The notes under the pieces are model-generated. The model did no database searches. It was not told the DNA's origin and saw nothing but the letters and a program-made list of their open reading frames with translations. Positions 987 through 34,351 of a stretch of 52,438 bases of DNA are shown one piece after another. A program made the translations under genes and the position numbers. The stretch is from an uncultured Rickettsiales bacterium (GTDB lineage: Bacteria > Pseudomonadota > Alphaproteobacteria > Rs-D84): positions 1-52,438 of the forward strand of contig URSG01000004.1 in the NCBI GenBank assembly GCA_900550565.1, in the 5' to 3' direction. The stretch's first letter is position 1; each line of letters opens with the position of its first letter.

Positions 987-2759
987 ATGAACCTGTTTGA
1001 TTCGGTTTTTCTGTGTCTGGATATTGGCTCAACCGGGGTGCGCGGTATGGCCCATCGTGTTTGTGGTGCAAAAATTGTAAAATCTGCGATTTCAACATCA
1101 GATTGTTTTGATACCGTATTCGCATTGCGTTCTGTTATTGACGACCTGGAACGTCAAATCGGAACCAGTTTTGATACCGCATACGTCACGGGGAATTTTG
1201 GCGCGTCTGTATTTGAAATGACCGCAAAAAGCACTGCCTGGGGTGGCGAACATAAAATTACCGCCGCCGATATCCAGGACCAAATTGCCCAGATAACACC
1301 CCCTGACGGATATTTTCCGATGCATATCGTGCCACTGCGATATGACACGCCGTCGGCACGCAATATGGCGACACCTGTGGGATACACAGACCGGCAACTG
1401 ATATCGGCATTTGGTGCAATATTTTATGCACGCGCCCGTATGGATACCGTTTTGGCGTTTTTGCGACGCGCACACATCACCGCCAGCGCATTTTATGACC
1501 CACAATTTTTACTGAACGCAACCCTGCGCCAGAAAAAACAAAATGTTATGTTTATTGACCTGGGCGGCGAATTTTCATCGGCATCAATTTGGACCGACCG
1601 TGGCCCTGTGTGGCACAGAAAAATTCCAATGGGTGGTACAAAAATAACAAACACAATTTCTGAAAAACTGCACATCTGTTTTGACGACGCCGAACGCGTT
1701 AAACGCGCCGTGGCCAGTTTTGTTCCAAAAGAAATGGACCGTTTTACCCCGGCCGATACCGCATACGAATTTTCACGTGGCGATATAAATGATATATTTA
1801 TGCCTGCGATGGTTGACATTGCCGCAGAAATGACGGCGGCGGCGCACGATGCGATTATAAAGTATCGTCCAACAAAAATTATACTGACGGGTGGTGGCGC
1901 ACTGGCCGAAGGTGCAACTGAATTTATTGAAAACACGTTTTCAATTCCAACCGAATACATTTCTGGCGACGCGATTGTTCGCGCTGGTTGCGCCAACATC
2001 TGGAACGCCGAGGCCGCGCACCGTGGCGCATACCTGGCCCGTCGCGACAGAATTCAACGAAATCTGGCATTTTTTGGAAAATTATTCAAGCGCACAAAAA
2101 AATCCCGCAATCGTTTTATTCCGATTATGCCCAGCACACTGTGTTTCAATATGCGACGCGCATCAACGTATTCAATGTTTCGCGCAGGTGGCATTTCAAT
2201 GATACACGTTGATATTATGGACGGATTTTACGTTGAACGTGTGGCCGGCGGAATTTCAGAATTAAAGATGATACGCGCACACACCGACGCACACCTGCAC
2301 GTCCACCTGATGACCGAGAGTCCGTCCGTCTGGGCCGCCGACAGTATTGCCGCCGGTGCCGACACAGTGATATTATCAACAAACACATCTGGACTGCGCG
2401 CGGCAATCGCCGCAACGCACGCCGCCGGTCGTCGCGTGGGCGTTGCATTAAACCCTGAATCATCGCCTGCGATATTAAAGCCGATTTTGCGCGACCTGGA
2501 CGAGGTTATGGTTATGACCGTGCGTCCCGGGGCCGCCGGACAAAAATTTCAAACAGACTGTTTGAAAAAAATTTCCGTACTTGATGCGACGCGCAAAAAA
2601 TACGGACTGAAATTTACAATTTCTGTTGACGGTGGCATAGACGATAAAACTGCACAAATGTGCTGGGACGCCGGCGCAGATTTATTGGTCAGTGGTTCAT
2701 ACCTGGCACGCAGCCCGGATTTCCCACTGGCGGTGCAAAGTTTATTAAAGCAATCATAA
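987..2759 (+). CDS. FtsA-like actin-family division protein (aa 1-380) continuing in frame into ribulose-phosphate 3-epimerase (aa 381-590)
   Basis: The N-terminal part has CLDIGSTGVRG, DLGGEFSS and ILTGGGA ATPase motifs and an amphipathic helix, NLAFFGKLFKRTKK. There is no stop codon before IMPSTL...HVDIMDG...HVHLM...RPGAAGQKF...VDGG..., which aligns with Rpe. An internal ATG lies at 2127. Confidence 0.8.
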   Translation: MNLFDSVFLCLDIGSTGVRGMAHRVCGAKIVKSAISTSDCFDTVFALRSVIDDLERQIGTSFDTAYVTGNFGASVFEMTAKSTAWGGEHKITAADIQDQIAQITPPDGYFPMHIVPLRYDTPSARNMATPVGYTDRQLISAFGAIFYARARMDTVLAFLRRAHITASAFYDPQFLLNATLRQKKQNVMFIDLGGEFSSASIWTDRGPVWHRKIPMGGTKITNTISEKLHICFDDAERVKRAVASFVPKEMDRFTPADTAYEFSRGDINDIFMPAMVDIAAEMTAAAHDAIIKYRPTKIILTGGGALAEGATEFIENTFSIPTEYISGDAIVRAGCANIWNAEAAHRGAYLARRDRIQRNLAFFGKLFKRTKKSRNRFIPIMPSTLCFNMRRASTYSMFRAGGISMIHVDIMDGFYVERVAGGISELKMIRAHTDAHLHVHLMTESPSVWAADSIAAGADTVILSTNTSGLRAAIAATHAAGRRVGVALNPESSPAILKPILRDLDEVMVMTVRPGAAGQKFQTDCLKKISVLDATRKKYGLKFTISVDGGIDDKTAQMCWDAGADLLVSGSYLARSPDFPLAVQSLLKQS

Positions 2760-2949: not shown

Positions 2950-3348
2950 CTATTTCACAACCAGTCTGCGCCCCGAACCGTGTTCTGTCAGATAAATATG
3001 AATTGTATCATTTGGCAAAACATCTGTGGCAATATCGGGCCACTCTATCAACGTAATATCGTTTGCGATTGCATACGGCAACCCGATTTCCGTCAATTCT
3101 GATGCGTCATTTATACGATACAGGTCAAAGTGCGATATGCCATCATAATTTTGCACAATGGTAAACGTCGGACTGGGGACAACAGTATCATCACCACGCA
3201 ATGTTTGAATTATTGTGCGTGCAATCTCGCTCTTGCCCATACCCAGGTCGCCGTGCAACGCCACGCACACCGGCGCACGCAAGGTTTTCGCAAATTCCAG
3301 CGCCCAGGCACGGGTTTGTTCAACACTGTCCAGTAAATATTCCTTCAT
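2950..3348 (-). CDS. tsaE: tRNA t6A37 biosynthesis ATPase TsaE (YjeE)
   Basis: The P-loop GDLGMGKSEIAR and the ~130 aa size are typical of TsaE. Confidence 0.85.
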   Translation of the reverse strand: MKEYLLDSVEQTRAWALEFAKTLRAPVCVALHGDLGMGKSEIARTIIQTLRGDDTVVPSPTFTIVQNYDGISHFDLYRINDASELTEIGLPYAIANDITLIEWPDIATDVLPNDTIHIYLTEHGSGRRLVVK

Positions 3349-10615: not shown

Positions 10616-12148
10616 GTGTATTACAGCATGAAAGATATATCAAATATATTCAACTTATCACCAAATGAATTAGAAAAAAAATCTAAATCAACCAGATCAT
10701 TATGGTCTGATACAGCACCACAAATTGTAGAATTTGCACAAAAACTTTCAAAATTTATTATCAAATCTGACACCCCGTATGTATTGGCTCTGGACGGTGG
10801 TTATGGAACAGGTAAAACCCATTTTTCTAGTAGATTTAGTATATTGTTAGACAAACGTCTAAGAACAATATATTTTAGCGCATGGGAACAAGATTATATG
10901 GTTGACCCATTTGTTGTATTTTCTGAAAAAATTATATGGATTGCTAGAAAGCAAGCGAATGAAACGGAAATTACAGATAAAATCTTAGAATCCTTAGCAA
11001 AAGCAACAAAAATTAGAGCCGAATTTGGCATTTGGGGATTATTCAAGGTTGAGGCAGAACTCTCCGGTGAAGACCTCATAAAAAAATTATTTCCCGAAAA
11101 ACAACGTTCTGACCTATTTATTGAATTGAAAGTTTTGCTATCTAATTTTATACAAAATTTACCAAATAAAAAACTAGTTATGATTGTTGATGAATTAGAT
11201 AGATGTCGTCCCGACTACGCTGTAAAAATACTAGAAACAATTAAACATTTTTTTGATATTCCTGGGCTTATTTTTATTCTTCCTATAAATTCCAAAAAAT
11301 TAAACACTTATGTGAAAGGTTTTTATAATATTCCAAACGATACTTTCGCCGACGGGGAGGATTATTTACAAAAATTTATAAATGAAACTATTGACGTACC
11401 ACAACTGAACTACAACAAAATTTGTGAAGACAGAATAAAACTTGCTGATTTTGGTCACCATATATCAAATATAGAAGGAAATTTTAATAGTATACAAGAA
11501 TTGAAAAAATGGATCGCCGAATACGCAAAACAAGCACATCTTTCATATAGGGAAACCATCGAGATAATAAAACGTGCTAAATATTTTTGTAAAAATTATT
11601 CAGAAGAAATAAGATGCAGATTACTGGCCTACCAATTATGCAATAAATTATACAAACAAAAGAATAAAAATTCTTCTAATCCAGCTACTAGGGCTTCAAC
11701 ATTAAAATTCGAAAAAAATTATATGTATAAAGAGGGCTATGAAGAATCTCAAAAAGAAATACTGCTAAAAGCAGATTTATTTAATGCTCATACACGATTA
11801 GAATTTCCAGGCCACGCAACCACTTCAAACGTACAAAATATTTGTCATAACATCTCTTCGCTACAACAAAACGCATATTCTTATAAGATAATGTTTTCTA
11901 CTATTGAAAAAATTAAAAACGAATTAAATAAAATAGACATAGAACATTATGTTCCTTACCAATCTTATTGGAGCACCGTAACGAAAGCTCAACTCCGTGA
12001 AAAGGTTCAATGTATACAAAATTATTTGAATCAAGCTAAGCAAAACTTATCAAATTTCCAACAAATAACAGGTTCGGATGATTCTGACGATGAAAGATTA
12101 TCTAGATATGAGGAAAAAATAAAAAATCCAACATCACTATTCAAATAA
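10616..12148 (+). CDS. KAP-family P-loop NTPase
   Basis: Walker A LDGGYGTGKTHF, Walker B LVMIVDELDRCRPDYAVKILETIKHFF (the KAP DELDRC signature) and a long helical C-terminal tail. The start is GTG 10616 or ATG 10628. Confidence 0.8.
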   Translation: MYYSMKDISNIFNLSPNELEKKSKSTRSLWSDTAPQIVEFAQKLSKFIIKSDTPYVLALDGGYGTGKTHFSSRFSILLDKRLRTIYFSAWEQDYMVDPFVVFSEKIIWIARKQANETEITDKILESLAKATKIRAEFGIWGLFKVEAELSGEDLIKKLFPEKQRSDLFIELKVLLSNFIQNLPNKKLVMIVDELDRCRPDYAVKILETIKHFFDIPGLIFILPINSKKLNTYVKGFYNIPNDTFADGEDYLQKFINETIDVPQLNYNKICEDRIKLADFGHHISNIEGNFNSIQELKKWIAEYAKQAHLSYRETIEIIKRAKYFCKNYSEEIRCRLLAYQLCNKLYKQKNKNSSNPATRASTLKFEKNYMYKEGYEESQKEILLKADLFNAHTRLEFPGHATTSNVQNICHNISSLQQNAYSYKIMFSTIEKIKNELNKIDIEHYVPYQSYWSTVTKAQLREKVQCIQNYLNQAKQNLSNFQQITGSDDSDDERLSRYEEKIKNPTSLFK

Positions 12149-12158
12149 CTTTTTAAGT

Positions 12159-12187
12159 TTGCAATAACGCTTTTCATATACTAAAAT
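12159..12187 (+). promoter_or_regulatory. sigma70-type promoter of leader RNA copy A1
   Basis: -35 TTGCAA (12159-12164), 17-bp spacer, -10 TAAAAT (12182-12187). The predicted start is G at 12195. Confidence 0.65.
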
Positions 12188-12194
12188 CTGTACC

Positions 12195-12415
12195 GAATCC
12201 ATGGGGACGTGGGTTCGGGGTCGTTCAAAACCCATAATTGCACGGTGTGAAAACATCGTTATCCGTTTTTGACAGCATAATGGTGTTTTTACACTGTTTT
12301 GCCTGGCCTTTTGGTCGGGTGTCTGTGGCTATATAACAGGTTCGCCGAAATCCACAGGGTCATTGCAATTATGATTTTGAAAATACCCGACCGTCATTCC
12401 CTTGGCGGTCTTTTT
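12195..12415 (+). ncRNA. structured leader / riboswitch-like RNA, copy A1 (class unknown)
   Basis: 221 nt, 100% identical to 15081-15301. It has a 14-bp helix (12242-12255 / 12284-12297), a G.U-rich hairpin (12301-12320), an alternative 8-bp pairing (12313-12320 / 12385-12392), and a terminator (12389-12410) plus T-run. The G.U pairs only work on the plus strand. Confidence 0.7.
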
Positions 12416-12435: not shown

Positions 12436-12894
12436 ATGAAAAAAATAATATTTGTTCTTCCAACAATACTTTTGTGTTCGTGCGCAATTCATTACCCGTA
12501 TACAGGTACAAAAACCATAACAGGCGAAGGCGGCTTTATAGAAAAGTATATTCCCGTTGAACATATTGGCCGTTCTATTTTTGAAAAAGAAATAGATTCT
12601 AAATACGATGGCATTTCATTTTACCGCTCGGGTCTGCCCATGGGGGCAAAATGCACATTAAAGGGATATATAGCAGAATCAAACCTTACGGACGTTGCAA
12701 AATCTGCACTTAAACAAGGGGCAAATGTAGCAACAAAATCAACTATTAAATTATCAAAGAGTTTTGATGATAACAGCGGCCAACTTGATGGAACTTGGGC
12801 CGCTGGGGATTGGTATTATTTATATGATCGGCGGTGGTATAACTGGTATTGGATCAAATTTGCCAAAGGATATAACATTTTTGAATGCAAATAA
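12436..12894 (+). CDS. small exported protein / putative lipoprotein
   Basis: MKKIIFVLPTILLCSCA is a signal peptide with a Cys-containing lipobox-like end. The ATG lies 21 nt after the A1 terminator. Trp/Tyr-rich C-terminus. Confidence 0.5.
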   Translation: MKKIIFVLPTILLCSCAIHYPYTGTKTITGEGGFIEKYIPVEHIGRSIFEKEIDSKYDGISFYRSGLPMGAKCTLKGYIAESNLTDVAKSALKQGANVATKSTIKLSKSFDDNSGQLDGTWAAGDWYYLYDRRWYNWYWIKFAKGYNIFECK

Positions 12895-15080: not shown

Positions 15081-15301
15081 GAATCCATGGGGACGTGGGT
15101 TCGGGGTCGTTCAAAACCCATAATTGCACGGTGTGAAAACATCGTTATCCGTTTTTGACAGCATAATGGTGTTTTTACACTGTTTTGCCTGGCCTTTTGG
15201 TCGGGTGTCTGTGGCTATATAACAGGTTCGCCGAAATCCACAGGGTCATTGCAATTATGATTTTGAAAATACCCGACCGTCATTCCCTTGGCGGTCTTTT
15301 T
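15081..15301 (+). ncRNA. structured leader / riboswitch-like RNA, copy A2 (class unknown)
   Basis: Identical to 12195-12415 over all 221 nt. It ends in the same terminator, 18 nt before the ATG at 15320. Confidence 0.7.
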
Positions 15302-15319: not shown

Positions 15320-15571
15320 ATGATTTACAAATTATACACTGGCGGCCAACCTATATTGGCCTTATTGGAACTGATTGCGGGGATATGCATCCCGGCACTC
15401 ATGTTAGGCGGAGTCATAGAATTGTTCGGACTGGCCGATACGTATGTAGGACAAGATAAAACACTAAGTCTTGTTTTTGGCGCGCTGGGTTTCTTTGCAT
15501 GCATGTTCGTATATCAATACATCGCATATAATTTATTGCCAAAATTACTAAAAACAAAGGACACAAAATGA
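15320..15571 (+). CDS. small integral membrane protein
   Basis: SD AAAGGA upstream of the ATG. The 83-aa product has 2-3 hydrophobic helices. Confidence 0.5.
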   Translation: MIYKLYTGGQPILALLELIAGICIPALMLGGVIELFGLADTYVGQDKTLSLVFGALGFFACMFVYQYIAYNLLPKLLKTKDTK

Positions 15572-15924
15572 AAAAGATAATAATTGCGCTGATTATATGT
15601 ATGACCGCTGTAACTGGTTATGCACGCACTATGAGCGTAGAGCAATTTGATAGAGAACACGCAGCATACCAACAAGAACTTTATAAAACCGCCCGCGAGG
15701 CTGGATATGACCCGACATCTAAAAAATCCATCGCGGAGCAATACAAAGCTAAACGATTGACCGAACAGACCATAAAACATCGTCTACAATTACAACAGGA
15801 ATACGAGCGAGAATACAACCGATATATCTGGTTAGAAAAAAACAAATCAATGCTGCTGTTTGCGCTGGCAGCAATCGGTGTTTTATCCATTTTTGTGGCA
15901 AGCCGTTACAAAAAGCATAAATAG
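15568..15924 (+). CDS. small exported / C-terminally anchored coiled-coil protein
   Basis: ATGA overlap with the previous ORF. It has a signal peptide (MKKIIIALIICMTAVTGYA) and a C-terminal TM helix. Confidence 0.5.
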   Translation: MKKIIIALIICMTAVTGYARTMSVEQFDREHAAYQQELYKTAREAGYDPTSKKSIAEQYKAKRLTEQTIKHRLQLQQEYEREYNRYIWLEKNKSMLLFALAAIGVLSIFVASRYKKHK

Positions 15925-15981: not shown

Positions 15982-16055
15982 TGGTGCCCTAAGCAAGAAT
16001 CGGACTTGCGACTCGTCCTTACCAAGGACGTGTTTTACCACTAGACTATTAGGGC
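15982..16055 (-). tRNA. tRNA-Thr (anticodon GGU)
   Basis: The reverse complement GCCCTAATAGTCTAGTGGTAAAACACGTCCTTGGTAAGGACG...TTAGGGCACCA folds as a cloverleaf with encoded CCA. Confidence 0.9.
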
Positions 16056-16198: not shown

Positions 16199-16275
16199 TG
16201 GTAGCGGGAGAGGGACTTGAACCCCCGACACGTGGATTATGATTCCACTGCTCTAACCAGCTGAGCTATCCCGCC
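16199..16275 (-). tRNA. tRNA with CAU anticodon (elongator Met or Ile2/lysidine)
   Basis: The reverse complement GGCGGGATAGCTCAGCTGGTTAGAGCAGTGGAATCATAATCCAC...CCCGCTACCA folds as a cloverleaf. It is not initiator-like, because position 1-72 is a G-C pair. Confidence 0.9.
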
Positions 16276-21444: not shown

Positions 21445-22518
21445 TTATGATAATGCGGCGGTGATTTGGTCTTGCATCTGGAACGTCCCCAGAACAACCC
21501 ACGCAATAACCGCAGATACCAACAAAATACCAATACTGTTCATTACATTTGATATTGATTCCATTTTGCGCACAGATTCATCAAGATAATCATTTGCAAC
21601 ACGGGATAAATTTTCATCAAAACCGTTCATATCTGCATAGATTGCCAAATCGCCAATCATTTCAGAATTCGGGAAACCGCGCCCAGTATTTGCCAACGCC
21701 ACGCCTAAATTATCACCATTGGCGATATAGTGCAACGTGTCGTTCAATATCGTCCGCAGATACCGATTTGAACCATCGGCCAACATACGCATTGCATCTG
21801 GGATTGTAATGCCGGCAGCAACCATGGACGACAAACTCATCAGCCAGTCAACAGACAACTGAATTTTATACACATTCCACGGTGGTAATTTATCAAAATA
21901 TTTACGCAGATTTCCCGTCCAATTTGCCAAACTGGCCCAGATAATGCCACCAAGCGCGGCAAAACCAATCACAAACGCATACCAATACTGTCCGGCAAAT
22001 TCAGACAACCATATCAGTGATGACGCCGCAGACTGCCACACCATTGTTGGGCCTGCAACCTCGGCCAATGGTGGCACCAGATATAAACCAACCATAATGA
22101 TAATCAAAAACGTCAGTGCCAACAAAAACAACGGATATGCAACCGCAGATATCATCGCGCGCTTTATCCGTTGTGTTCCATCAACAACACGCGTAACATT
22201 TTCCAGCGCAACAACCAAATTAGATAAATTCCCAGACGTCACCAACAACGATTCTTCCAGTGGAACCCAACCACGGGTTGCGTCTGAAAAACTCATACCG
22301 CGTTCCAGATTTTTCTGAAATTCACGCATCACGATTGCAAACGGCTCGTTTGGATTGCGGCCATTTTTAGATTCCACCATTTCCAATCGCCCCAGCGCGT
22401 CCATCAACGTAAAATCATTACGCAACAGTGACGCCAACTTGCGCGCGGTGGCCATACGTTTTTCAGTATTTAATCTGAAAGCAATTTTGGCATATAATTT
22501 GTCCAGTCTGGTTGTCAT
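21445..22518 (-). CDS. type IV pilus / T2SS platform protein (GspF/PilC family; PilR(R64)/BfpE-like)
   Basis: 357 aa with three TM segments and two T2SS-F-like repeats. It lies directly downstream of the GspE-family ATPase. Confidence 0.8.
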   Translation of the reverse strand: MTTRLDKLYAKIAFRLNTEKRMATARKLASLLRNDFTLMDALGRLEMVESKNGRNPNEPFAIVMREFQKNLERGMSFSDATRGWVPLEESLLVTSGNLSNLVVALENVTRVVDGTQRIKRAMISAVAYPLFLLALTFLIIIMVGLYLVPPLAEVAGPTMVWQSAASSLIWLSEFAGQYWYAFVIGFAALGGIIWASLANWTGNLRKYFDKLPPWNVYKIQLSVDWLMSLSSMVAAGITIPDAMRMLADGSNRYLRTILNDTLHYIANGDNLGVALANTGRGFPNSEMIGDLAIYADMNGFDENLSRVANDYLDESVRKMESISNVMNSIGILLVSAVIAWVVLGTFQMQDQITAALS

Positions 22519-22521
22519 ACC

Positions 22522-24159
22522 TTAATACACCCCCGGTCTGTCCAATAATCCAACCCAGCGTTCCAATTCATCAACGCCGATAATTCCCTGCAACATCAGT
22601 GACATTGCCGCCTCTTTCAATGTGCGGCCGTCCATATCTTCCAGCCAATAACGCAATGCACCGTCGGTATTTCCAGCCAACGCCAGACGTAAAAATTCAC
22701 TGTTTGTAATGATAATTTCGCCGGCCTTGATACGCCCCAGTGTTCCTGTTCCCTTGCATTCCTTGCACCCGGCACCGCGGATATAAACCTGGCGCAGTCC
22801 CAGTTCCCCAAATGCCGTCATCACACGCCCATAGGCCGGATGTTCTGGGTGGTCAATCAACCGTTCACGACAAAACGGGCAAACCTTTTTAAACAGACGC
22901 ATAGAAATCAATCCACGCATCAGTGTTTCTTCTTTTAACTTGAACGCTTCTATCCCCAGGTCTAATAAACGGGTCAACGCAGACATTGCCGAATTCGCGT
23001 GCAACGTTGTCCAAACATTATGACCAGATAACGCACCACGCACCGTCAACTGGGCCGCCGCCAACGTGCGAATTTCCCCAACCATCAATGTATCTGGGTC
23101 ACTGCGCAATGCCGCGGCCAGTGCCTCGGTATATCTGTCTTCGCGTTGTTCTTCGTTTGTGGTATTTACCACAGGCATCTGGTGCGCGCCAAAAATCTTT
23201 TGTTCAACCGGGTTTTCCACCGTAATCATATTTATTTCGTAATTACGTTCTTTTAACATCAGCGACATATTACGCACCAATGTCGTAGATTTACCAGAAC
23301 TGGTTGGCCCCGCAACAATTACCAGTCCGGTTGGAAACGCGCGCAGACGCATCAACAAACGCTGTTCATATTCGCCAAATTCTTGTTCGGTTTTAATACC
23401 TTCGGACGGGTTATCATACAGCAATCGCATAACCACATACCGCGAACCAAACGCGATTGGATTAAACTGCATACGGATACTAAGAATTCCCATCGGCAGA
23501 TATAAATCCTTGGTCCCACGCAGTGGTGTTCGTCCGTCTTTTTGCGCGGCCTGGTATTCGTTCTGGGCATAGTTCGCGTTTGACATATCAGACGACGCAA
23601 ACGCCGCACGAACAAATGATTCGCCCCACCCCGAATTATATTCCAGAACAGGCTGCATACTGCCGTCAATGCGGAAATAGATTGTGGTTTGGTCACCAAC
23701 CTCAATATGAATATCTGACACTTTTTGCGCAGCGGCACGTGCAACAATATCCACAAAATCTTTCTGCATTTGGTTGTCAAAATCGCGACTGACACGTACC
23801 GGCCCACCCAGGCGTGCCTCGTACGATTTATATATCGCCGACACCAAACCTAAATCAGAATAAAACGGTGTTCGCATTGGACGTGCGCGTGCGCGCAACA
23901 AATCCAAGAACGCCATCACACGCCCATCATATCGGTGCGTGCGTGAAATAATAATTTCCCCACCGGAAAAATACGCAATTAAACCCTGGGTATCTTTTGG
24001 CAGTTCCTGGGACCCCCCAGTTGCCGTCAACAAACGATTCCCATTTGAAAACAAATAATCAACAATATCCTTGGTTTCGGCATTTTCCAACCCCGACGGA
24101 ACAGATGGACGTTCAGCCACTGGGATATTGTTCAAAATATCATTTTCCGTATTGTTCAT
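22522..24159 (-). CDS. GspE/PilB-family secretion ATPase (PilQ(R64)/BfpD-like)
   Basis: Walker A GPTSSGKSTT, an Asp box, Walker B LMVGEIR, His box GHNVWTTLHAN and a tetra-Cys cluster (CPFC...CKEC). Confidence 0.92.
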   Translation of the reverse strand: MNNTENDILNNIPVAERPSVPSGLENAETKDIVDYLFSNGNRLLTATGGSQELPKDTQGLIAYFSGGEIIISRTHRYDGRVMAFLDLLRARARPMRTPFYSDLGLVSAIYKSYEARLGGPVRVSRDFDNQMQKDFVDIVARAAAQKVSDIHIEVGDQTTIYFRIDGSMQPVLEYNSGWGESFVRAAFASSDMSNANYAQNEYQAAQKDGRTPLRGTKDLYLPMGILSIRMQFNPIAFGSRYVVMRLLYDNPSEGIKTEQEFGEYEQRLLMRLRAFPTGLVIVAGPTSSGKSTTLVRNMSLMLKERNYEINMITVENPVEQKIFGAHQMPVVNTTNEEQREDRYTEALAAALRSDPDTLMVGEIRTLAAAQLTVRGALSGHNVWTTLHANSAMSALTRLLDLGIEAFKLKEETLMRGLISMRLFKKVCPFCRERLIDHPEHPAYGRVMTAFGELGLRQVYIRGAGCKECKGTGTLGRIKAGEIIITNSEFLRLALAGNTDGALRYWLEDMDGRTLKEAAMSLMLQGIIGVDELERWVGLLDRPGVY

Positions 24160-24177
24160 ATCGCGTTAAATCCATTT

Positions 24178-24852
24178 TTATTTTGCGTTTGTCACGTTTA
24201 ACGCCTGGGTTGCCCCAGATGGTGTGACAAAAACAATTCCTTCGTCCAGTGATATAGATTTTACGGTAAATCCGTCCAGACTGCGGCCAACAGAAATCTT
24301 TTTATTCTGGCCTGTTTTTAAATCTGCGACTGTTGCCTGTAATTGATTGCCGACGCCAAACACGTTGACCAATTTGTATTTTTCAGAAATTTTAACATCT
24401 GAATCATTATCAGACGCAGACGCACCCTTGCTGGCAACGCGTGGGGCAGAACTTTCGTTTTCCAATGCCTGTTTTTCGCGTTCCAGTCTGGCGGTTTCAG
24501 CCTCTAACTTGGCCTTGGCGGCGTCCAGTTCCTGTTGCTGTTGTTCGGCGCGCCCAGACAACGTATCAATTTCCATATGCAACTTGATTTTTTCGGCCGC
24601 CAACCGGTCTAATTCCAAATCCAGTTGTGCGCGTTCTTTTTCCAGTTGCATTAAAATTTTTTCCTGTTCCAAATCAGTAATCTGTTGAAACAGCGAACCG
24701 TCAACCTGGTAATCAGACACGGCACTGGCCGACACCTGTTCCATATCAGTATCCGTAATTTCAATATCTTGGTCTAAAACCTCGGCCTGGGCACTGGCGA
24801 CCGGAAACGCAAACACAGAAAACAACAAAACATACTTCATTTTATTTGACAT
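24178..24852 (-). CDS. exported coiled-coil protein, PilP/BfpU-position pilus biogenesis component
   Basis: Signal peptide (FPVASAQA), an E/Q/L-rich coiled coil and a C-terminal beta-domain resembling PilP/GspC HR domains. Confidence 0.4.
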   Translation of the reverse strand: MSNKMKYVLLFSVFAFPVASAQAEVLDQDIEITDTDMEQVSASAVSDYQVDGSLFQQITDLEQEKILMQLEKERAQLDLELDRLAAEKIKLHMEIDTLSGRAEQQQQELDAAKAKLEAETARLEREKQALENESSAPRVASKGASASDNDSDVKISEKYKLVNVFGVGNQLQATVADLKTGQNKKISVGRSLDGFTVKSISLDEGIVFVTPSGATQALNVTNAK

Positions 24853-26152
24853 AGATTATCACCTCATAGTTCCAGATGCGGCGCGACGCGTCCCATGCGC
24901 AACGTGTCATATATACCCCACCAAAATCGTCAAAGATTTTCATAAACTGCATCGGCGTCATTTTTGATTCTGCCGCAACTTCTATCAAGTTCACCGTTGC
25001 AACATCAACGCCATTGCTTAACGTATCGGTTGCAACATTTGTTTCAACATCTGTTGAAATTCCCTGGAACGCCGTCTGAATCGCGCGCAAGACCGTATCA
25101 ATATCACGTTCATCAACCGACGCAACCGACGCAACCGTTGGCAATGTTGCGCGCACCGTCACAACATCTGCTGATTCTTCGTTAACGTATGCGGCCGGCA
25201 TCAGTTCTGTGGCAACGCTGTAAAAATCCCCCAGTGTTCCAAAACTGCGCTTAAACCGTGCCGACGCGTGGGTTTCGCCACATTCGGCCGACACCTGGTT
25301 CCAGCCAGGAATTGGTTGCATTACAAAGCCGATTGCCTGATAGCATACCTGGGCCCGACGTGTCACATCTGGCAATTCGTCGTATGGCATAACAATCGGG
25401 GCCGGTGCTGTTTTTTTCTCTATATCAAACGCAGCGTCCAGTTCTTTGTTTTTTTCTGCGATTTGGCGTTTATATTCGGCCGCCAATTCTGGGTTTATTT
25501 TTGCAACCTGGGGCGGTGTCATCATTTGGCGAATTGGTTCGCGGAAAAATGATAACAAGAAAAACACAAACACAGCCAACAAAACAACCGACAATAAAAC
25601 GCGTCTGAACCGACTGATTGGGCGCAACGTCGCACGCGCACCACCCGAAATTAAATCTGATAAGTTTCGTTCAATCGCACGTGGCATACCCCACGCAGAC
25701 GGCGCAAACAACGCACCCCAATCAGGAATTTCTGATAAACGAAAATATTCTGCACGCGCCGCATCCTGGGAATCAAACAATTTATCTTGCAGAATTATGC
25801 TATTACGCACCGCAACCAGGTAAAAACCATTTTCTGTATCAAACACCCCCAGAAAAGAATTATATTCGGTCAGCGCGTCCATAACCTCGGCCGCGGCAGA
25901 TGGCATACCAATACGATGTCCTGCACGACGTGCGCCCAATCCAATCAGTGTGCGATATTCTGTGAACAGATTCAATTTTCTGTTCATACCACGCGCCAAT
26001 GCGCGCGCATACGCACGCGGTGCCACGCCGACCATGGCAGGTTGCCAAAACAGACCGACGGCATATTTTTTGCGCTTGATATTTATTACTTTGTCTGGCA
26101 ATTTCTCTCTCTGGTTTAATATCACGACAATTATAACACAAAACGCGCGCAT
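24842..26152 (-). CDS. bitopic membrane protein, PilO(R64)/BfpC-position pilus biogenesis component
   Basis: 436 aa with a cytoplasmic N-domain, a single central TM helix (VLLSVVLLAVFVFFLLSFF) and a periplasmic C-domain. The gene order matches type IVb clusters. The start is uncertain. Confidence 0.35.
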   Translation of the reverse strand: MRAFCVIIVVILNQREKLPDKVINIKRKKYAVGLFWQPAMVGVAPRAYARALARGMNRKLNLFTEYRTLIGLGARRAGHRIGMPSAAAEVMDALTEYNSFLGVFDTENGFYLVAVRNSIILQDKLFDSQDAARAEYFRLSEIPDWGALFAPSAWGMPRAIERNLSDLISGGARATLRPISRFRRVLLSVVLLAVFVFFLLSFFREPIRQMMTPPQVAKINPELAAEYKRQIAEKNKELDAAFDIEKKTAPAPIVMPYDELPDVTRRAQVCYQAIGFVMQPIPGWNQVSAECGETHASARFKRSFGTLGDFYSVATELMPAAYVNEESADVVTVRATLPTVASVASVDERDIDTVLRAIQTAFQGISTDVETNVATDTLSNGVDVATVNLIEVAAESKMTPMQFMKIFDDFGGVYMTRCAWDASRRIWNYEVIIYVK

Positions 26153-29492: not shown

Positions 29493-29569
<77 letters not shown>

Positions 29570-29577
29570 AGATTTAC

Positions 29578-29604
29578 AAAACCGTCCACATGGGCGGTTT
29601 TTTG
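29578..29604 (+). terminator. rho-independent terminator after tRNA-fMet
   Basis: CCGTCC-ACAT-GGGCGG hairpin followed by TTTTTT. Confidence 0.7.
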
Positions 29605-29685
29605 TTAGAATCCTAATATCCATAAAAAGTTCAAAAGTTGAAATTAAAAAAGTGGCGATTTTTCGCCACTTTTTGATTACTATAT

Positions 29686-30121: not shown

Positions 30122-30505
30122 TTATTTACAACCAACAAAAGCCCAAACTTCATCAGATGGTTGTGCAATTTTTACACGAACAGCCGTCTGGTCTGCGTCA
30201 CACATTTCGGCATCAATAAACGCAACCTCTATATAATCATGTTCTGTATCGTTTAAAACCATATTAAATACATTTTCGTCACTATCAAAATTATACCGGA
30301 ACATACCATTAGGTTTATTTTGTTTTATATCAATAACCCACTGAATATCAGACGGACATTGATATATCGTATGATTACTGTCTGTTTCTAATACAGTACA
30401 ACCATCAAAAATACGTGGAATATCATACTTTGCAACGTCTGCTGTTTCTGCCAAGGATACAAGCGGAAACAAAGACGCGATTATAGAAATTGTATATTTT
30501 TTCAT
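30122..30505 (-). CDS. small secreted Cys-containing protein
   Basis: Signal peptide MKKYTISIIASLFPLVSLAET, and SD AGAGGGGA upstream. It lies immediately downstream of leader RNA copy B. Confidence 0.5.
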   Translation of the reverse strand: MKKYTISIIASLFPLVSLAETADVAKYDIPRIFDGCTVLETDSNHTIYQCPSDIQWVIDIKQNKPNGMFRYNFDSDENVFNMVLNDTEHDYIEVAFIDAEMCDADQTAVRVKIAQPSDEVWAFVGCK

Positions 30506-30525
30506 ATTTTTCCCCTCTTTTTATT

Positions 30526-30728
30526 AAAAAATTAAACCACCAACAAGATTGGTGGTCGGGGAGTTGGTGTCAGCAAACAAATGCTCCGTCCCTTTCGGTA
30601 AACGGCTCCCCAACCATAAAAGCCAGGGATGATAACGATGCAAAAAGCACCGAAAACATCAGATTACGATGCTTTTGCACCGTGTTTGCGGGCCACCACA
30701 GCCCCGAAACCCAAATCTCTTTGGATTC
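30526..30728 (-). ncRNA. structured leader / riboswitch-like RNA, diverged copy B (same family as A1/A2)
   Basis: It starts with GAATCCA like A1/A2 and shares TGGGTT(T)CGGGG and CACGGTG-AAA-CATCGT-ATC (19/23 identical). The equivalent helices carry compensatory changes. It has a GAAA tetraloop hairpin, a 10-bp antiterminator pairing (30615-30606 / 30563-30554) and a terminator CCACCAA-TCTTG-TTGGTGG (30555-30537) plus T-run. Confidence 0.6.
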
Positions 30729-30735
30729 ACGTTTT

Positions 30736-30764
30736 ATTATAATATTAAATCAATAAAATTTCAA
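30736..30764 (-). promoter_or_regulatory. sigma70-type promoter of leader RNA copy B
   Basis: On the minus strand: -35 TTGAAA (30764-30759), 17-bp spacer, -10 TATAAT (30741-30736), then 7 nt to G at 30728. Confidence 0.65.
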
Positions 30765-30788: not shown

Positions 30789-31406
30789 CTATAAAAAGCA
30801 TTTTTTTAGTGTTTCGCCGGTATCATTTTGGTCAACGCGTTTGTTGCGGATTTCTTCGGCGGCCTTTATTTTTTGTTTTACTAAAATTAAATCTGGGTGC
30901 GCTTGTAATTCTGTGTTTAGTTCATCAACCGCCGCTGATATATCAGACTGTTTTCTGACAAAAATTGGTGTAATAGAATCGGCAGCGTTATAAACAGAAC
31001 GCTGTAATTCCGATTTAAAATCATCAATCACAGATAAATACGCACGAATATGACCGTCTTCGTGTGACAAAATCGCGTTGTATGAACACGATTCCGGCAC
31101 ATGGCGCATATCTATCTGAACCAGAAAATTAGTGTATCCAACCGATGCAGTGACTGATTTTATTGCGATGCAAAAACCATCTTCTATTGATGTAATATCG
31201 GCAACAATATCATAATTATCTGACAGTGTTGCAATCACATTTCCGTGTAATAAATCCATTGGTTCCAGTGGTTGAACAACCTCTTTGGTCCAGGACGGAC
31301 TGTCAATATAAACCGCTGGATTTAATTTATACGGCAAACAATCGTCGGCCCACCCAGGTGTTGCCATCACAGATAAAATTAAAATTGCAACTTTGCGGAA
31401 ATACAT
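30789..31406 (-). CDS. secreted HExxH-motif protein (DUF922-like putative Zn-peptidase)
   Basis: Signal peptide MYFRKVAILILSVMATPGWA and the motif SHEDGHIRAY. An alternative start at 31427 would overlap the end of virB4. Confidence 0.45.
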   Translation of the reverse strand: MYFRKVAILILSVMATPGWADDCLPYKLNPAVYIDSPSWTKEVVQPLEPMDLLHGNVIATLSDNYDIVADITSIEDGFCIAIKSVTASVGYTNFLVQIDMRHVPESCSYNAILSHEDGHIRAYLSVIDDFKSELQRSVYNAADSITPIFVRKQSDISAAVDELNTELQAHPDLILVKQKIKAAEEIRNKRVDQNDTGETLKKCFL

Positions 31407-31410
31407 ATCA

Positions 31411-33825
31411 TTATAAATCCCCGGCACCCTGCTTTTTCAGGTATTCTGATACAAAACTGTTTCCGTATTGTTTATATAATTCTTCGGCCAATAATACAGA
31501 TGAACGTCCCGATTCAAACAAACGCAACATATTCCCCAGGCCACCTAATTCTGTGTTTAAAATCACAGATTCGCCCGTCACCGGACGCGACAATAACAAC
31601 GCGCGTTTCAGATTTGGATATGCCTTGCCCTGGATAAATGCCATTTCCAATGGATTTAAATTCCAATGCGCATAATCTGATGCATCGGCGGCCGGATTAC
31701 GGAAAAACAGCACCGTCTGGGCCTGGCCACGAACAACGTCACCAATCCCCAATTTATCCAAAACATTTGCACGCTGGAACGAAACCATATATGCCTGGCG
31801 GTTTTTACGTCCCTCTTGCAGGCCAACAATGAAATTATCACGGAACATTTTGTTTTCCAACATTGGCGCAGTTTCGTCAATCATAATCAACGACGGATTT
31901 CCACCAGATACCGTGATGTTATTTATTCGGTGCAATATATACGAAATAACCGCGGGCGACAATGTTTCATCTTGCAAAATTTCGGTAAAGTCAAACGTGG
32001 TCAATCGTGATTGCAAATCCAACGTATCAGATGTTTCATTGAAAATATCGCCATACTGCAATGGATCAACCCACTTTTTCAACGCCGGTCGCATATTCCC
32101 AGTTGATGAAAAACAACTTTCCCATAAATTTTTTAACACCCTGTCTTTTTCCGGCAGATAATCAAAATTCACAGATACTGCGCGCGCAATTTCATCGGCA
32201 GAATTAGCGTCTGATTGTCCAGTTATAATTGAAAACCAGCGACGTAAAAACGCGCGATTTGCCGCATTATCCGGCATTTTCAGCGGATTCAAATGCGTCA
32301 AGAACGAATTGTTTACAGCATTTTTTTCCTTGCCCTGCATAGTGATATATTTACCACCAACCGACAGTGTAAATATTTCTGCACCTTTGTTGCGGTCAAA
32401 GAAAAATGCCTTTAATTTCGGGTGACGCAATGATTGCGCAATCAAGAAACTGAACAATGTTGTTTTACCGCCACCGGTTGGCCCAATCGTCAGGGTATGC
32501 GCCACCGCGGCCGGTTTATCGGATACATGAAATTGAAATTGATATGGCGTTCCCTGGGCGGTTGGAAAAACAACCAATGGCCCCGGACCCCAGTCTGAGT
32601 TTGCAACACCACGTGGCTGGGTTGACATAGGAATACTGATTGCGGCCGTACGCGACAACATCTTGAACGTGCGCGGAAATACATCAAATCCTGGGATTTG
32701 TGAAAACCACGAAACACGCGCGGCATACGTTTCACAAATCGGCGATACACCAAAAGATGCCGCGATTTTCTTGAACTCGTCAACATAGTAATTTAATTCT
32801 TCGGGTGTTTTACCAAACAATATAAACAGTGGGTAATAATTCACCAAACTTTGATTACCAGAAATGTTTTCGTCCATCGCACGATTTGCCGCCGAAATCT
32901 GTTCTGTTGTTGATACATCGTTTTCTTCGGCCGACGATTGACGTTGACGCATTGCAACCTCTATATCTGCGGCACCCATAATACGAAATGCGTTCATACA
33001 AATCATTTCTGTCTGAATCGTGGATACAGTATCAAAAAATTCTTCGTCCAGATAATCTGGCGATGCACGAAATGATATCATTGTTGCAAATGATTGTGTG
33101 CCACCACTGACATATCGCACCAACCCATCGCGCATAAATTCAACATCGTCAACCGTTGTTAAATCTGCAATTCGTCCATCACAAACAATCGGCGACGGTT
33201 TTGTTATTGGCGATAAAATCCGACCAAAGAATCGCGCCATATTATCACGATCTGCGTGACGCAATAATTTCGGACGATATGCCGCCAATATAGATTCCAG
33301 ATAATTACCATATTGATTTAATTTATCCCGTGCGCCCGTCCCAGATACAGACAAAACAATATAATAATTATTCAAAAATATGCGCAGTCCCTGGGCCTGC
33401 CATTTATTGTATATTTTTTGCAACACAGGCTGGTCAAAATCATAATTTGTATTTTCATCGGCGGCATCACGCGTCATAAAAAAACGCATTACAACATTTG
33501 GATCGCGAATCTGGTTAAATAATTGCGCACGCAAATCCAAAAATTTTTCACGTGTCAAACTATCTTGCATACTGGTTTGAACACCTGCGACGCGATACAC
33601 ACGCAACAAAGAACCATCTGATAATTCCAGTGAATCATCACTGTAAACAGTCTGAAATGGGATATACCGCGAATAACGTTTATATCCAAACTGGGGAAAA
33701 ATGCGACGCGTCAACGCAGGCATATACATCATCAGTGCAACAAATATTAAAATAACCGCCATAACCATTATCATAGTTGTGACTGGAAATCCGCTGCCTG
33801 CAAAATATTTAAAAACATCTGTCAT
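31411..33825 (-). CDS. virB4: type IV secretion system ATPase VirB4/TrbE family
   Basis: 804 aa. Walker A GPTGGGKTT, Walker B LIMIDETAPML and an N-terminal TM helix. Confidence 0.9.
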   Translation of the reverse strand: MTDVFKYFAGSGFPVTTMIMVMAVILIFVALMMYMPALTRRIFPQFGYKRYSRYIPFQTVYSDDSLELSDGSLLRVYRVAGVQTSMQDSLTREKFLDLRAQLFNQIRDPNVVMRFFMTRDAADENTNYDFDQPVLQKIYNKWQAQGLRIFLNNYYIVLSVSGTGARDKLNQYGNYLESILAAYRPKLLRHADRDNMARFFGRILSPITKPSPIVCDGRIADLTTVDDVEFMRDGLVRYVSGGTQSFATMISFRASPDYLDEEFFDTVSTIQTEMICMNAFRIMGAADIEVAMRQRQSSAEENDVSTTEQISAANRAMDENISGNQSLVNYYPLFILFGKTPEELNYYVDEFKKIAASFGVSPICETYAARVSWFSQIPGFDVFPRTFKMLSRTAAISIPMSTQPRGVANSDWGPGPLVVFPTAQGTPYQFQFHVSDKPAAVAHTLTIGPTGGGKTTLFSFLIAQSLRHPKLKAFFFDRNKGAEIFTLSVGGKYITMQGKEKNAVNNSFLTHLNPLKMPDNAANRAFLRRWFSIITGQSDANSADEIARAVSVNFDYLPEKDRVLKNLWESCFSSTGNMRPALKKWVDPLQYGDIFNETSDTLDLQSRLTTFDFTEILQDETLSPAVISYILHRINNITVSGGNPSLIMIDETAPMLENKMFRDNFIVGLQEGRKNRQAYMVSFQRANVLDKLGIGDVVRGQAQTVLFFRNPAADASDYAHWNLNPLEMAFIQGKAYPNLKRALLLSRPVTGESVILNTELGGLGNMLRLFESGRSSVLLAEELYKQYGNSFVSEYLKKQGAGDL

Positions 33826-33828
33826 TTT

Positions 33829-34125
33829 TTATGCCGCCAGTTTATTTGGTATTTTCTTTTTGAAAAGTTGTATTTGTGCCGCCAATATTTGTCCCAACTG
33901 GGGGTCACGTTTTGAAAACGCGGCCAAAATCGCATGTGTCACACACAGAACTAATAAAAACCACATTGGGCTGACCGGGTCATTACCATTAGTTATTATC
34001 AATGATAAAACAAAAATACCAATAAAAACAATGAACAACACGGCGAAATTTATCACCGCCAATGTATATGGCACGTAAAATATACGTGCAGGATTTGCCA
34101 ATGCTTTCAGTACTTGTTGTTTCAT
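33829..34125 (-). CDS. virB3: VirB3-like type IV secretion protein
   Basis: MKQQVLKALANPARIFYVPYTLAVINF plus two TM helices. It is directly upstream of virB4, with a 3-nt gap. The ORF-track start at 34185 is probably overextended. Confidence 0.6.
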   Translation of the reverse strand: MKQQVLKALANPARIFYVPYTLAVINFAVLFIVFIGIFVLSLIITNGNDPVSPMWFLLVLCVTHAILAAFSKRDPQLGQILAAQIQLFKKKIPNKLAA

Positions 34126-34166
34126 TTGGATTCTTATTCTCTGCTCTCTTGCCTGAATTATAACAA

Positions 34167-34351
34167 TTTCAACAGTTTTCAACAAGTATAAAAAGTAAAT
34201 TACTAAAATTGTTGAAATTGTGGAAAATTACTATTTTTTCAACATGTTTATATCTGTGTCTGCGAATTCAACAGAACACACAAAAATACCGAAAAACCTG
34301 GTTTTTTATGTTGAAAACTTGTTTAAAAAAAGTTTAAAAATATTATCAACA
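34167..34351. promoter_or_regulatory. array of TTTCAACA / TGTTGAAA motifs in the virB3-rpmJ divergent intergenic region
   Basis: Exact copies are at 34167, 34177 and 34237 (forward) and 34210 and 34309 (inverted). 7/8 variants are at 34219 (TGTGGAAA), 34266 (ATTCAACA) and 34344 (TATCAACA). Confidence 0.5.

What the first reader, a model, noticed from the sequence alone, without database searches (positions are those of the whole stretch)
30526..30764. A third, diverged family member on the minus strand shows compensatory base changes
Copy B has the same promoter geometry (TTGAAA, 17 bp, TATAAT, then 7 nt to G) and the same first bases (GAATCCA). It shares the conserved blocks TGGGTT(T)CGGGG and CACGGTG..AAA..CATCGT.ATC. 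In the long helix, A1 pairs U-A, A-U and G.U are replaced in B by C-G, G-C and A-U at the corresponding positions (A1 12242-12255/12284-12297 versus B 30683-30670/30649-30635). The antiterminator arm keeps the CCCGACC core, while the terminator stem has a completely different sequence but the same position. Covariation with conserved architecture is the classic signature of a functional RNA family.
Basis: seen in the sequence. Interest (0 to 1): 0.85.

Follow-up and report, generated by a model that had tools for sequence, protein, structure and literature searches.

The report
New structured leader RNA family
The minus-strand element is a real, diverged third copy of a previously uncatalogued ~200-nt structured RNA leader with its own promoter and terminator, found upstream of surface and secreted-protein genes in small-genome gut bacteria (Candidatus Enterousia), where it probably controls whether transcription reads into the gene.

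Summary
Window 30530-30728 (-) is a third copy of the element at 12195-12415 (+) and 15081-15301 (+). A covariance model built only from A-type copies finds it at 77.5 bits.

With 20 distinct homologs from Ca. Enterousia and related gut MAGs, the family folds into eight helices. These are P0 (a GNRA hairpin), the P1-P2-P3 stem, a four-way junction carrying P4, P5 and P6, and an intrinsic terminator.
- 94.9% of pair cells are canonical, against 40-47% in slid controls.
- 28 of 73 pairs show compensatory changes, including 15 of 16 in P2/P3.

No Rfam 15 family matches. There are no phage, plasmid or viral hits, and I found no literature description.

Every intact copy has a sigma-70-like promoter placing +1 at GAAUCC. 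Each ends in a hairpin plus U-tract, 1-36 nt before an accessory gene: lipoproteins, autotransporters, an OMP-like protein, a secreted protease, small secreted proteins, or an EcoRI-type methylase.

A conserved, covarying alternative helix (GGUYGGGnnn with nnnCCCGACC) overlaps the terminator. Two natural leader-deletion variants also lost the terminator stem.

Best reading: a new transcription-attenuating leader, riboswitch-like or factor-dependent, whose signal is unknown. The structure is well supported. The switch mechanism is inferred.

The parts
30736..30764 (-). Promoter of copy B: -35 TTGAAA (30764-30759), 17-nt spacer, -10 TATAAT (30741-30736). The predicted start is G30728.
   Evidence: 11 of 12 consensus matches. 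Comparable promoter-like hexamers sit at about the same distance upstream of most homologs read by eye; L009's is weak.
30530..30728 (-). Copy B of the leader RNA, from the GAAUCC start to the terminator U-tract (199 nt).
   Evidence: CM hits of 77.5 bits (A-only model) and 162 bits (family model). Folding z-score is -6.0.
30706..30728 (-). P0: 5' hairpin GAAUCCAAA-GAGA-UUUGGGUUUC with a GNRA loop.
   Evidence: Two pairs are compensatory and 99.4% of cells are paired. The loop is GGGA or GAGA in all members.
30558..30705 (-). Core domain. P1 is GGG 30705-30703 with CCC 30560-30558. P2 is 30698-30692 with 30571-30565. P3 is 30689-30684 with 30578-30573. Together they close a four-way junction.
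   Evidence: In P2/P3, 15 of 16 pairs have changes on both sides.
30635..30683 (-). P4: the long hairpin, ACGGUGCAAAAGCAUCGUAAUC with GUUUUCGGUGCUUUUUGCAUCGU. Its sequence is highly conserved.
30608..30628 (-). P5 hairpin, CCCUGGCU with GGUUGGGG. Its 3' strand is also the 5' strand of the proposed antiterminator (G2, 30615-30606).
30585..30606 (-). P6 hairpin tipped by CC-GAAA-GG. The loop is GNRA: GAAA, GCAA or GUAA among B-type relatives.
30554..30563 (-). C2 segment CUCCCCGACC. It is shared by the P1 3' strand, the proposed antiterminator 3' strand and the terminator 5' arm.
30526..30557 (-). Intrinsic terminator: GACCACCA (30557-30550), loop, UGGUGGUU (30542-30535), then UUAAUUUUUU.
30122..30505 (-). 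Downstream cargo gene of B: a 127-aa protein with a signal peptide and no Pfam family. An SD (GAGGGG) and the ATG follow within about 28 nt of the terminator.
12195..12415 (+). Copy A1 of the leader. Its promoter is about 12159-12187. The downstream gene is a lipoprotein at 12436-12894.
15081..15301 (+). Copy A2 of the leader, 100% identical to A1. Downstream are small membrane and lipoprotein genes at 15320-15924.

Best explanation
B is a genuine, diverged paralog of an uncatalogued structured 5'-leader RNA family of about 195-225 nt. So far the family is seen only in Candidatus Enterousia and related Rs-D84 gut Alphaproteobacteria.

Shown from sequence and comparison:
- Each copy sits behind its own sigma-70-like promoter, which places +1 at GAAUCC.
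- The RNA folds into P0 (a GNRA-capped hairpin) and a long stem, P1-P2-P3. That stem closes a four-way junction bearing P4 (a long, sequence-conserved hairpin), P5, and P6 (GNRA-tipped).
- It ends in an intrinsic terminator 1-36 nt before the SD and start codon of an accessory gene. These genes mostly encode envelope or secreted proteins.

Inferred: it acts in cis as a transcription attenuator.
- In the thermodynamically favoured closed fold, P5 and P1 are formed and the terminator hairpin is free to form, so the default state is OFF.
- In the alternative fold, the 3' strand of P5 plus three following bases (GGUYGGGnnn) pairs with nnnCCCGACC. That segment includes the 3' strand of P1 and the first four bases of the terminator stem. 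The terminator is then blocked and RNA polymerase reads into the gene.

Not identified: what tips the balance. It could be a small ligand or second messenger bound by the junction domain, or a protein bound to the conserved P4 or P0.
For: Family membership and structure:
- The three window copies, and only those, are found by the CMs.
- There are 12 genome, 9 metagenome and 7 ortholog-derived loci.
- 94.9% of cells are paired against 40-47% in slid controls. 28 pairs are compensatory, 15 of 16 of them in P2/P3. No shuffle of 500 reached the observed value for four of the five summary measures: percentage of cells paired, pairs and cells with changes on both sides, and covariation score. For the fifth, further pair types, 40 of 500 did.
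- RNAalifold recovers the fold, with a covariation term of -11.3.

RNA-level and strand-specific:
- There are many conserved G.U pairs.
- The forward strand scores 271 bits against 20 bits for the reverse.
- There is no conserved ORF, and lengths differ by non-multiples of 3.

Acts in cis:
- In every copy except L025, whose 3' end is rearranged, an ORF follows in the same orientation within 1-36 nt. I saw no second promoter-like match in that short gap in the A-type sequences I read; this was not scanned systematically.
- Most copies have a recognisable promoter-like match at a fixed distance from the GAAUCC start.
- The hairpin plus U-tract is confirmed.

Purifying selection: between orthologous loci the leader is 94-96% identical while the adjacent CDS is 75-85% identical.

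Switch:
- The alternative helix is found by RNAalifold.
- It is 94.3% paired against 36-54% in slid controls, with 3 compensatory pairs.
- It is retained in all 9 distinct sequence combinations, at -13 to -22 kcal/mol against -8 to -14 for P5.
- Before the terminator is transcribed, the alternative fold is only 1-8 kcal/mol above the closed fold.

Natural deletions: orthologs of B's cargo gene that lost part of the leader (L036/37) or nearly all of it (L040) also lost the terminator stem. A distant ortholog (L041/42) has no leader at all.
Against: - No transcript data support the start site, the termination or the read-through.
- The closed, terminator-permissive fold is the MFE in every subtype, even before the terminator is complete. 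Read-through therefore needs an unidentified factor or a kinetic effect.
- The antiterminator helix crosses P2/P3 topologically. It requires at least P2 to be melted, or an awkward pseudoknot.
- Covariation for the antiterminator rests on three positions and about 5-7 lineages.
- The downstream genes are heterogeneous and not metabolic, so they suggest no ligand.
- P4 and the terminator are conserved in sequence rather than covarying. That could equally reflect protein binding or generic terminators. A similar terminator follows a tRNA at 29582-29605.
Confidence: 0.62

Rival explanations
1. A family of stand-alone, trans-acting small RNAs of about 200 nt. The terminator simply ends the sRNA. 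Downstream genes are expressed by leaky read-through, and the RNA's real job lies elsewhere, for example binding a protein or base-pairing with targets.
For: The unit is self-contained: promoter, structured RNA and a strong terminator. The terminator-permissive fold is the MFE. Each subtype is extremely conserved in sequence, 96-100%, loops included. P4 is conserved in sequence.
Against: In every intact copy an ORF follows in the same orientation within 1-36 nt, and I saw no separate promoter in the A-type copies read; L025, rearranged at its 3' end, has none. A free-standing sRNA gene would not be expected to keep that arrangement. The alternative helix overlapping the terminator is conserved and covaries. 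Leader deletions are accompanied by loss of the terminator. Terminated leader transcripts could still have a secondary trans role.
Confidence: 0.15
2. A constitutive 5'-UTR module with no switch. Possible roles are an mRNA-stabilising or processing element, such as an RNase III site in the 21-bp P4, a transcriptional insulator, or a binding platform for a translation or secretion factor.
For: P4 is a long, near-perfect helix. Cargo genes encode exported proteins. Promoter plus leader behaves as a portable module kept in place while cargo is exchanged.
Against: A strong intrinsic terminator just upstream of the SD is hard to reconcile with a purely stabilising role. The covarying antiterminator pairing would be left unexplained.
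Confidence: 0.13
3. A DNA-level dispersed repeat, such as a MITE-, REP- or attC-like recombination site, rather than an RNA element.
For: A1 and A2 are 100% identical while their flanks are unrelated. Synteny between genomes breaks exactly at the leader's 5' or 3' edges, and cargo genes are swapped there. A tyrosine recombinase lies upstream in the C/D-type loci.
Against: The structure is strand-specific, with conserved G.U pairs, and the reverse strand scores more than 10-fold lower in bits. There are no terminal inverted repeats, target duplications or attC core sites. The element always lies between a promoter and a gene, in one orientation. The leader-gene association is conserved across species. 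There are no hits in plasmids, phages or viral contigs. Recombinases are not generally adjacent. Breakpoints at repeat edges are what homologous recombination between dispersed copies would produce, and some may be MAG assembly joins.
Confidence: 0.05

Closest known systems
Transcription-terminating riboswitches, especially multi-copy second-messenger classes such as c-di-GMP-I (GEMM-I, RF01051)
   Same: Both are 5' leaders with a conserved, covarying multi-helix domain that uses GNRA loops, followed by mutually exclusive antiterminator and terminator helices. Both occur in several copies per genome upstream of surface, adhesin or protease genes. The gene associations of GEMM-I are from my own knowledge.
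   Different: There is no sequence or structure match to any of the 4227 Rfam 15 models, even at E up to 10. This element is larger, at about 170 nt before the terminator, with a four-way junction. Its ligand is unknown and binding is untested. Each subtype is unusually conserved in sequence.
Protein-dependent antitermination leaders (BglG/SacY RAT elements, ANTAR targets, PyrR binding loops)
   Same: An alternative helix overlaps the 5' arm of an intrinsic terminator in a 5' leader. Sequence-conserved hairpins (P0, P4) could be protein-binding sites.
   Different: There is no RAT-like or dual-hexaloop motif next to the terminator, and no Rfam hit to PyrR or similar. The element is much larger, and its antiterminator is a long-range pairing. 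No cognate regulator gene is linked in the loci examined.
Orphan structured leader or ncRNA candidates from comparative-genomics surveys (Weinberg et al. 2017, PMC5737381; Fremin & Bhatt 2021, PMC8040213)
   Same: It is the same kind of evidence: a conserved intergenic motif with covariation, found mostly in uncultured gut organisms.
   Different: It was not found among the Rfam-deposited motifs. It was also not found in the subset of Fremin & Bhatt alignments held here, about 195 of 3161, so prior listing there cannot be excluded.
Dispersed structured repeats of reduced genomes (e.g. Rickettsia palindromic elements, REP/MITEs)
   Same: Both are near-identical copies dispersed in a small alphaproteobacterial genome and coincide with rearrangement breakpoints.
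   Different: This element is strand-specific at the RNA level, never lies inside genes, is always placed between a promoter and a gene, and carries a terminator.

Membership tests
Any Rfam 15 family | A covariance-model score at or above the family's gathering threshold. | tested here: not met
   Only three tRNAs pass in the window. On the B and A1 regions at E up to 10, the best hits are RNAI at 18 bits (gathering score 47) and mir-9256 at 17.6 bits (gathering score 80), which are noise.
Riboswitch (generic class) | A conserved structured aptamer domain supported by covariation. | tested here: met
   73-pair fold, 94.9% paired, 28 compensatory pairs. RNAalifold agrees.
Riboswitch (generic class) | An expression platform with mutually exclusive terminator and antiterminator, located in the 5' UTR of the regulated gene. 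| tested here: inconclusive
   The terminator and its position are clear. The alternative helix is conserved and covaries. However, it conflicts topologically with P2/P3 and is never the MFE.
Riboswitch (generic class) | Direct, selective binding of a small-molecule or ion ligand. | not testable with these tools
   This needs in-line probing, ITC or transcription assays. The gene context (envelope and secreted proteins, an R-M system) does not nominate a metabolite.
T-box leader | A Stem I specifier loop and a conserved T-box sequence in the antiterminator bulge, upstream of aminoacyl-tRNA-related genes. | tested here: not met
   No Rfam T-box hit. The downstream genes are unrelated to amino-acid metabolism.
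ANTAR / RAT protein-dependent antiterminators | Two tandem hexaloop hairpins (ANTAR), or a ~29-nt RAT hairpin overlapping the terminator's 5' arm. | tested here: not met
   By inspection of alignment A8, the segment before the terminator (nnnCCCGACC) is not a local hairpin. Its partner lies about 60-75 nt upstream.
MITE / REP-type DNA repeat | Terminal inverted repeats and target-site duplications, inserted in either orientation. | tested here: not met
   The ends are GAATCCA... and ...GGCGGTYTTTT, which are not inverted repeats. All 28 occurrences (24 from the pattern scans and the window, plus L032, L033, L035 and L038) have the same orientation relative to the downstream gene. The fold is strand-specific.
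Integron attC / gene cassette | R''-L''/L'-R' core sites (RYYYAAC/GTTRRRY), arrays of cassettes next to an intI gene, and the element at the 3' end of each cassette. | tested here: not met
   There are no core sites at the element ends. Copies are single and 3-15 kb apart rather than in arrays. Each has its own promoter. A tyrosine recombinase is adjacent only in C/D-type loci and is co-directional.
This new leader family (as defined here) | A GAAUCC start with a GNRA hairpin, GGGUUCGGG, ACGGUGYRAAARCAUCG, GGUYGGG ... CCCGACC, and a terminator. | tested here: met
   B has all of these blocks. It scores 77.5 bits with a model that excluded it.

The most novel reading that the evidence does not exclude
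This is a new riboswitch or ribo-regulator class that senses a global signal, for example a second messenger or an ion. It would govern a regulon of variable surface, secreted and defence genes in reduced-genome gut Alphaproteobacteria. The near-identical promoter-plus-leader modules would double as portable homology cassettes, behind which cargo genes are exchanged between strains.
Probability: 0.3. Interest if true: 0.8.

Novelty: new variant of a known kind. Interest (0 to 1): 0.6.

Why it matters
Candidatus Enterousia and its order (Rs-D84) are uncultured gut bacteria with genomes of about 0.75-1 Mb (PMC12306168). Nothing found here describes how they regulate genes. A multi-copy structured leader in front of their lipoproteins, autotransporters, secreted proteases and small secreted proteins would be the first regulatory element described for them. 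It would define the set of genes they switch together, presumably those facing the host or partner organisms.

For RNA biology it is a large orphan motif: a four-way junction, two or three GNRA loops, and a built-in expression platform. It comes with unusually good material for ligand or factor hunting, namely several paralogous subtypes and natural deletion variants.

Cargo genes are replaced exactly behind the leader. This also suggests how small genomes keep a fixed expression module while diversifying their surface repertoire.

Tried and rejected
- Rfam at gathering and at permissive thresholds: nothing relevant.
- blastn of the A and B leaders against plasmids and phages, and a viral contigs pattern scan: no match.
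- Literature: no paper links Rs-D84 or Enterousia with riboswitches. The Fremin & Bhatt supplement gave no match, but only about 195 of its 3161 alignments are held, so this is a weak negative.
- Leader-peptide (ribosome-mediated) attenuation: rejected. No start codon or ORF is conserved across subtypes, and stop codons occur in all frames.
- Protein-coding explanation: rejected for the same reason, even though gene callers extended two orthologs (P0002, P0004) through the leader.
- 'Extended P1' antiterminator (GGUUCGGG pairing with CCCGACC at the expense of P0). It is energetically close, 0.3-4 kcal/mol above the MFE. But it consists of invariant bases, needs a 1-2 nt bulge, and acquires an A.C mismatch in subtype E (L038). 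It is less supported than the P5-strand antiterminator.
- P4 as two short hairpins (ACGGUGY-RAAA-RCAUCGU, twice) rather than one long hairpin: the data cannot tell these apart, because each arm is itself a palindrome.
- A weak CM hit at 29582-29676 is only a tRNA terminator with a similar stem.
- A linked regulator gene: none was recurrent upstream or downstream.
- L003, L008, L012 and seven metagenome loci were chance pattern matches.
- The MAFFT-only alignment put P2/P3 out of register and hid their covariation. A CM-guided alignment was needed.

Full report
**Observation**

- Reading the minus strand gives TTGAAA-17 nt-TATAAT-7 nt-G. The consensus scan scores it 11/12.
- The RNA starts GAAUCCAAAGAGAUUUGGGUUUCGGGG and ends in a hairpin plus U-tract at 30557-30526.
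- The two conserved blocks each occur exactly three times in the window, at 12.2 kb (+), 15.1 kb (+) and 30.7 kb (-). Chance expectation is 0.05 and 0.00.
- A1 and A2 are 100% identical over 221 nt while their flanks are unrelated. Within the window there are therefore only two independent sequences.

**Is it a family?**

No Rfam 15 model matches, even at E up to 10.

A 19-base pattern from the long hairpin was scanned against one genome per species.
- It returned 15 loci. Twelve are clear homologs. All come from Candidatus Enterousia or unnamed gut alphaproteobacterial or 'Rickettsiales' MAGs.
- The same pattern found 9 further true copies in metagenomes and none in viral contigs.

A covariance model built only from six A-type sequences recovers B at 77.5 bits and every other subtype at 81-114 bits. 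It finds exactly three copies in the window. A second, broader model run with filters off finds no further copy.

I then looked up homologs of B's downstream protein and their contigs. This added four more leaders, including two new subtypes (L038, L032).

**Structure**

On the final CM-guided alignment (21 sequences, 20 distinct, about 7 subtypes), the fold has 73 pairs in eight helices.
- 94.9% of cells are canonical pairs, against 40-47% when partners are slid by 1-3 columns.
- 28 pairs show changes on both sides.
- No shuffle of 500 reached the observed value for four of the five summary measures: percentage paired, pairs and cells with both-sided changes, and covariation score. For further pair types, 40 of 500 did.
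- The stacked P2/P3 stem is almost completely rewritten between subtypes yet stays 96% paired, with 15 of 16 pairs compensatory. P5 has 3 of 8 and P6 has 4 of 7.
- RNAalifold on a CM alignment independently predicts the same helices: 64 pairs, 27 compensatory, covariation term -11.3 kcal/mol.
- Single-sequence MFE folds of A1 and B give the same architecture, with z-scores of -7.4 and -6.0.

The architecture is:
- P0, a hairpin with a GGGA or GAGA (GNRA) loop.
- P1 (GGG with CCC), then P2 and P3.
- A four-way junction carrying P4, P5 and P6. P4 is long, up to 21 bp, and conserved in sequence. P6 is tipped by GAAA, GCAA or GUAA in B-type copies.
- An intrinsic terminator.

Several points show the structure works at the RNA level and is strand-specific.
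- Several G.U pairs are conserved.
- The reverse strand scores 20-38 bits against about 270.
- No reading frame is conserved, and lengths differ by non-multiples of three.

**Context**

- Upstream of most copies read by eye there is a recognisable -35/-10 match about 6-7 nt before the conserved G (L009's is weak).
- In every intact copy an ORF follows in the same orientation, with an SD, 1-36 nt after the U-tract. L025, which diverges from L029 within the terminator's 3' arm, has none.
- The cargo genes are: lipoproteins; small membrane or secreted proteins without Pfam hits; autotransporters (PF03797); an OMP-like protein (judged from its sequence, not scanned against Pfam); a secreted trypsin-like protease; a Listeria-Bacteroides-repeat protein; and, in two species, an EcoRI-type methylase followed by a GmrSD/HNH nuclease.
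- The window itself is ordinary chromosome (ftsQ/A, uvrB, aspS, gyrB, lpxC/K, pheST, mreC-PBP2-rodA, topA, ileS). The leaders sit in small accessory islets. A1 follows a KAP NTPase gene. B follows virB3, virB4 and a 212-aa ORF.
- Enterousia genomes are about 0.75-1.0 Mb (PMC12306168).

**Selection**

Between orthologous loci the leader is more conserved than the adjacent coding sequence. The figures are 96.4% against 84.9% for A1 vs L014, and 94.3% against 74.5% for B vs L028. By my reading of alignment A3, most differences within a subtype fall in loops, are wobble-compatible, or are compensated; one, T-to-C in upper P4 of L004, creates a mismatch.

**Mechanism (inferred)**

The segment nnnCCCGACC has two roles. 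It supplies the 3' strand of P1 and the first four bases of the terminator stem. It is also perfectly complementary to the 3' strand of P5 plus the next three bases (GGUYGGGnnn).
- RNAalifold picked this long-range helix from the MAFFT alignment.
- On a register-anchored mini-alignment it is 94.3% paired, against 36-54% slid. The three extension pairs covary: UGU/AUA, GAG/CUC, GUG/CAC, GGG/CUC.
- All nine distinct sequence combinations keep it, at -13 to -22 kcal/mol. That is stronger than the local P5 hairpin, at -8 to -14.
- Before the terminator's 3' arm exists, the fold containing this helix is only 1-8 kcal/mol above the closed fold.

This fits the usual three-part logic of anti-antiterminator (P5/P1), antiterminator and terminator.

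There are caveats.
- The closed fold is always the MFE.
- The antiterminator crosses P2/P3, so at least P2 must be open.
- The evidence rests on few lineages.

Natural variants support a working terminator. In L036/37 a 25-nt deletion removed the 3' strands of P3, P2 and P1 together with the terminator's 5' arm. In L040 almost the whole leader is gone and the terminator stem with it. The most distant ortholog has no leader at all. I saw no case where the regulatory domain was lost but the terminator kept.

**Rivals**

- A stand-alone sRNA is disfavoured by the fixed position and orientation upstream of genes.
- A constitutive stabiliser or processing element does not explain the terminator or the covarying alternative helix.
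- A DNA repeat or mobile element is disfavoured by strand-specific G.U-containing helices, the absence of TIR, TSD or attC features, and the absence from plasmid, phage and viral collections.

The repeat nature does have consequences. Homology between genomes breaks exactly at the leader's edges. Cargo is replaced between the leader and the next conserved gene. For example, methylase plus nuclease (2.2 kb) in L002 corresponds to a protease (1.7 kb) in L011, both lying between a xerC/D-like gene plus leader and adk. Some single-breakpoint cases could be MAG assembly joins at the repeat.

**Verdict**

- Well supported: a new structured leader RNA family.
- Plausible but unproven: its working as a regulated transcription attenuator.
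- Unknown: the signal it responds to.

It belongs to a known kind of system, attenuating or riboswitch-like leaders, but to no known family.

Noticed in passing
window 12195-12415 and 15081-15301: The two A-type leaders are 100% identical over 221 nt, while their promoters and downstream genes are at the identity level of unrelated sequence. This suggests gene conversion or very recent duplication confined to the transcribed leader.
   Followed up: partly
L002 1073-3525 vs L011 (leader 3011-3225, minus strand); also L010 vs L019, L005 vs L006: Cargo genes are replaced exactly behind the leader's terminator while both flanks stay syntenic. One species has an EcoRI-type methylase plus a GmrSD/HNH nuclease. 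Another has a trypsin-like secreted protease at the same place, between a xerC/D-like recombinase gene plus leader and adk.
   Followed up: partly
L036 2312-2481, L037, L040 ~235-265, L041 2224-2315: These are natural leader-loss variants upstream of orthologs of B's cargo gene. One has a 25-nt deletion removing the 3' strands of P3, P2 and P1 and the terminator's 5' arm. One has a near-complete deletion joining GAATCCAA to the terminator loop. One ortholog has no leader at all.
   Followed up: yes
L005 vs L010, ~80 nt past the leader: Two 243-aa secreted proteins share the upstream region, the leader and the signal peptide, then diverge completely in the mature part. This looks like a hypervariable surface or secreted protein locus.
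   Followed up: no
window 29582-29605: The terminator after the tRNA at 29493-29566 (AACCGTCCACATGGGCGGTTTTTT) resembles the leaders' terminator stems (ACCGYC...GGCGGT). Part of the leader terminator's sequence conservation may therefore be a genome-wide terminator habit.
   Followed up: partly
window 987-2759: A 590-aa ORF combines an FtsA/PilM-like domain (residues ~182-325) with a complete ribulose-phosphate 3-epimerase domain (382-573). It is either a gene fusion or two adjacent genes read as one ORF.
   Followed up: no
window 30789-34185 (-) and 21445-26152 (-): VirB3- and VirB4-like type IV secretion genes lie directly upstream of copy B. A type IV pilus / T2SS-like cluster (T2SSF, T2SSE ATPase, PilO) lies at 21-26 kb. 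B's small secreted cargo protein might be related to the secretion system.
   Followed up: no
window 30490-30756 (+): An 88-aa ORF on the opposite strand overlaps copy B. The corresponding frame carries stop codons in several other subtypes, so it is a chance ORF. Gene callers also extended two orthologs of the cargo gene through the leader (P0002 at 219 aa, P0004 at 204 aa).
   Followed up: yes
window 10616-12148: A KAP-family P-loop NTPase gene lies immediately upstream of leader A1. Two tRNA genes (15985-16055 and 16202-16275, minus strand) bound the A2 islet. The leaders sit in small accessory islets within housekeeping DNA.
   Followed up: no
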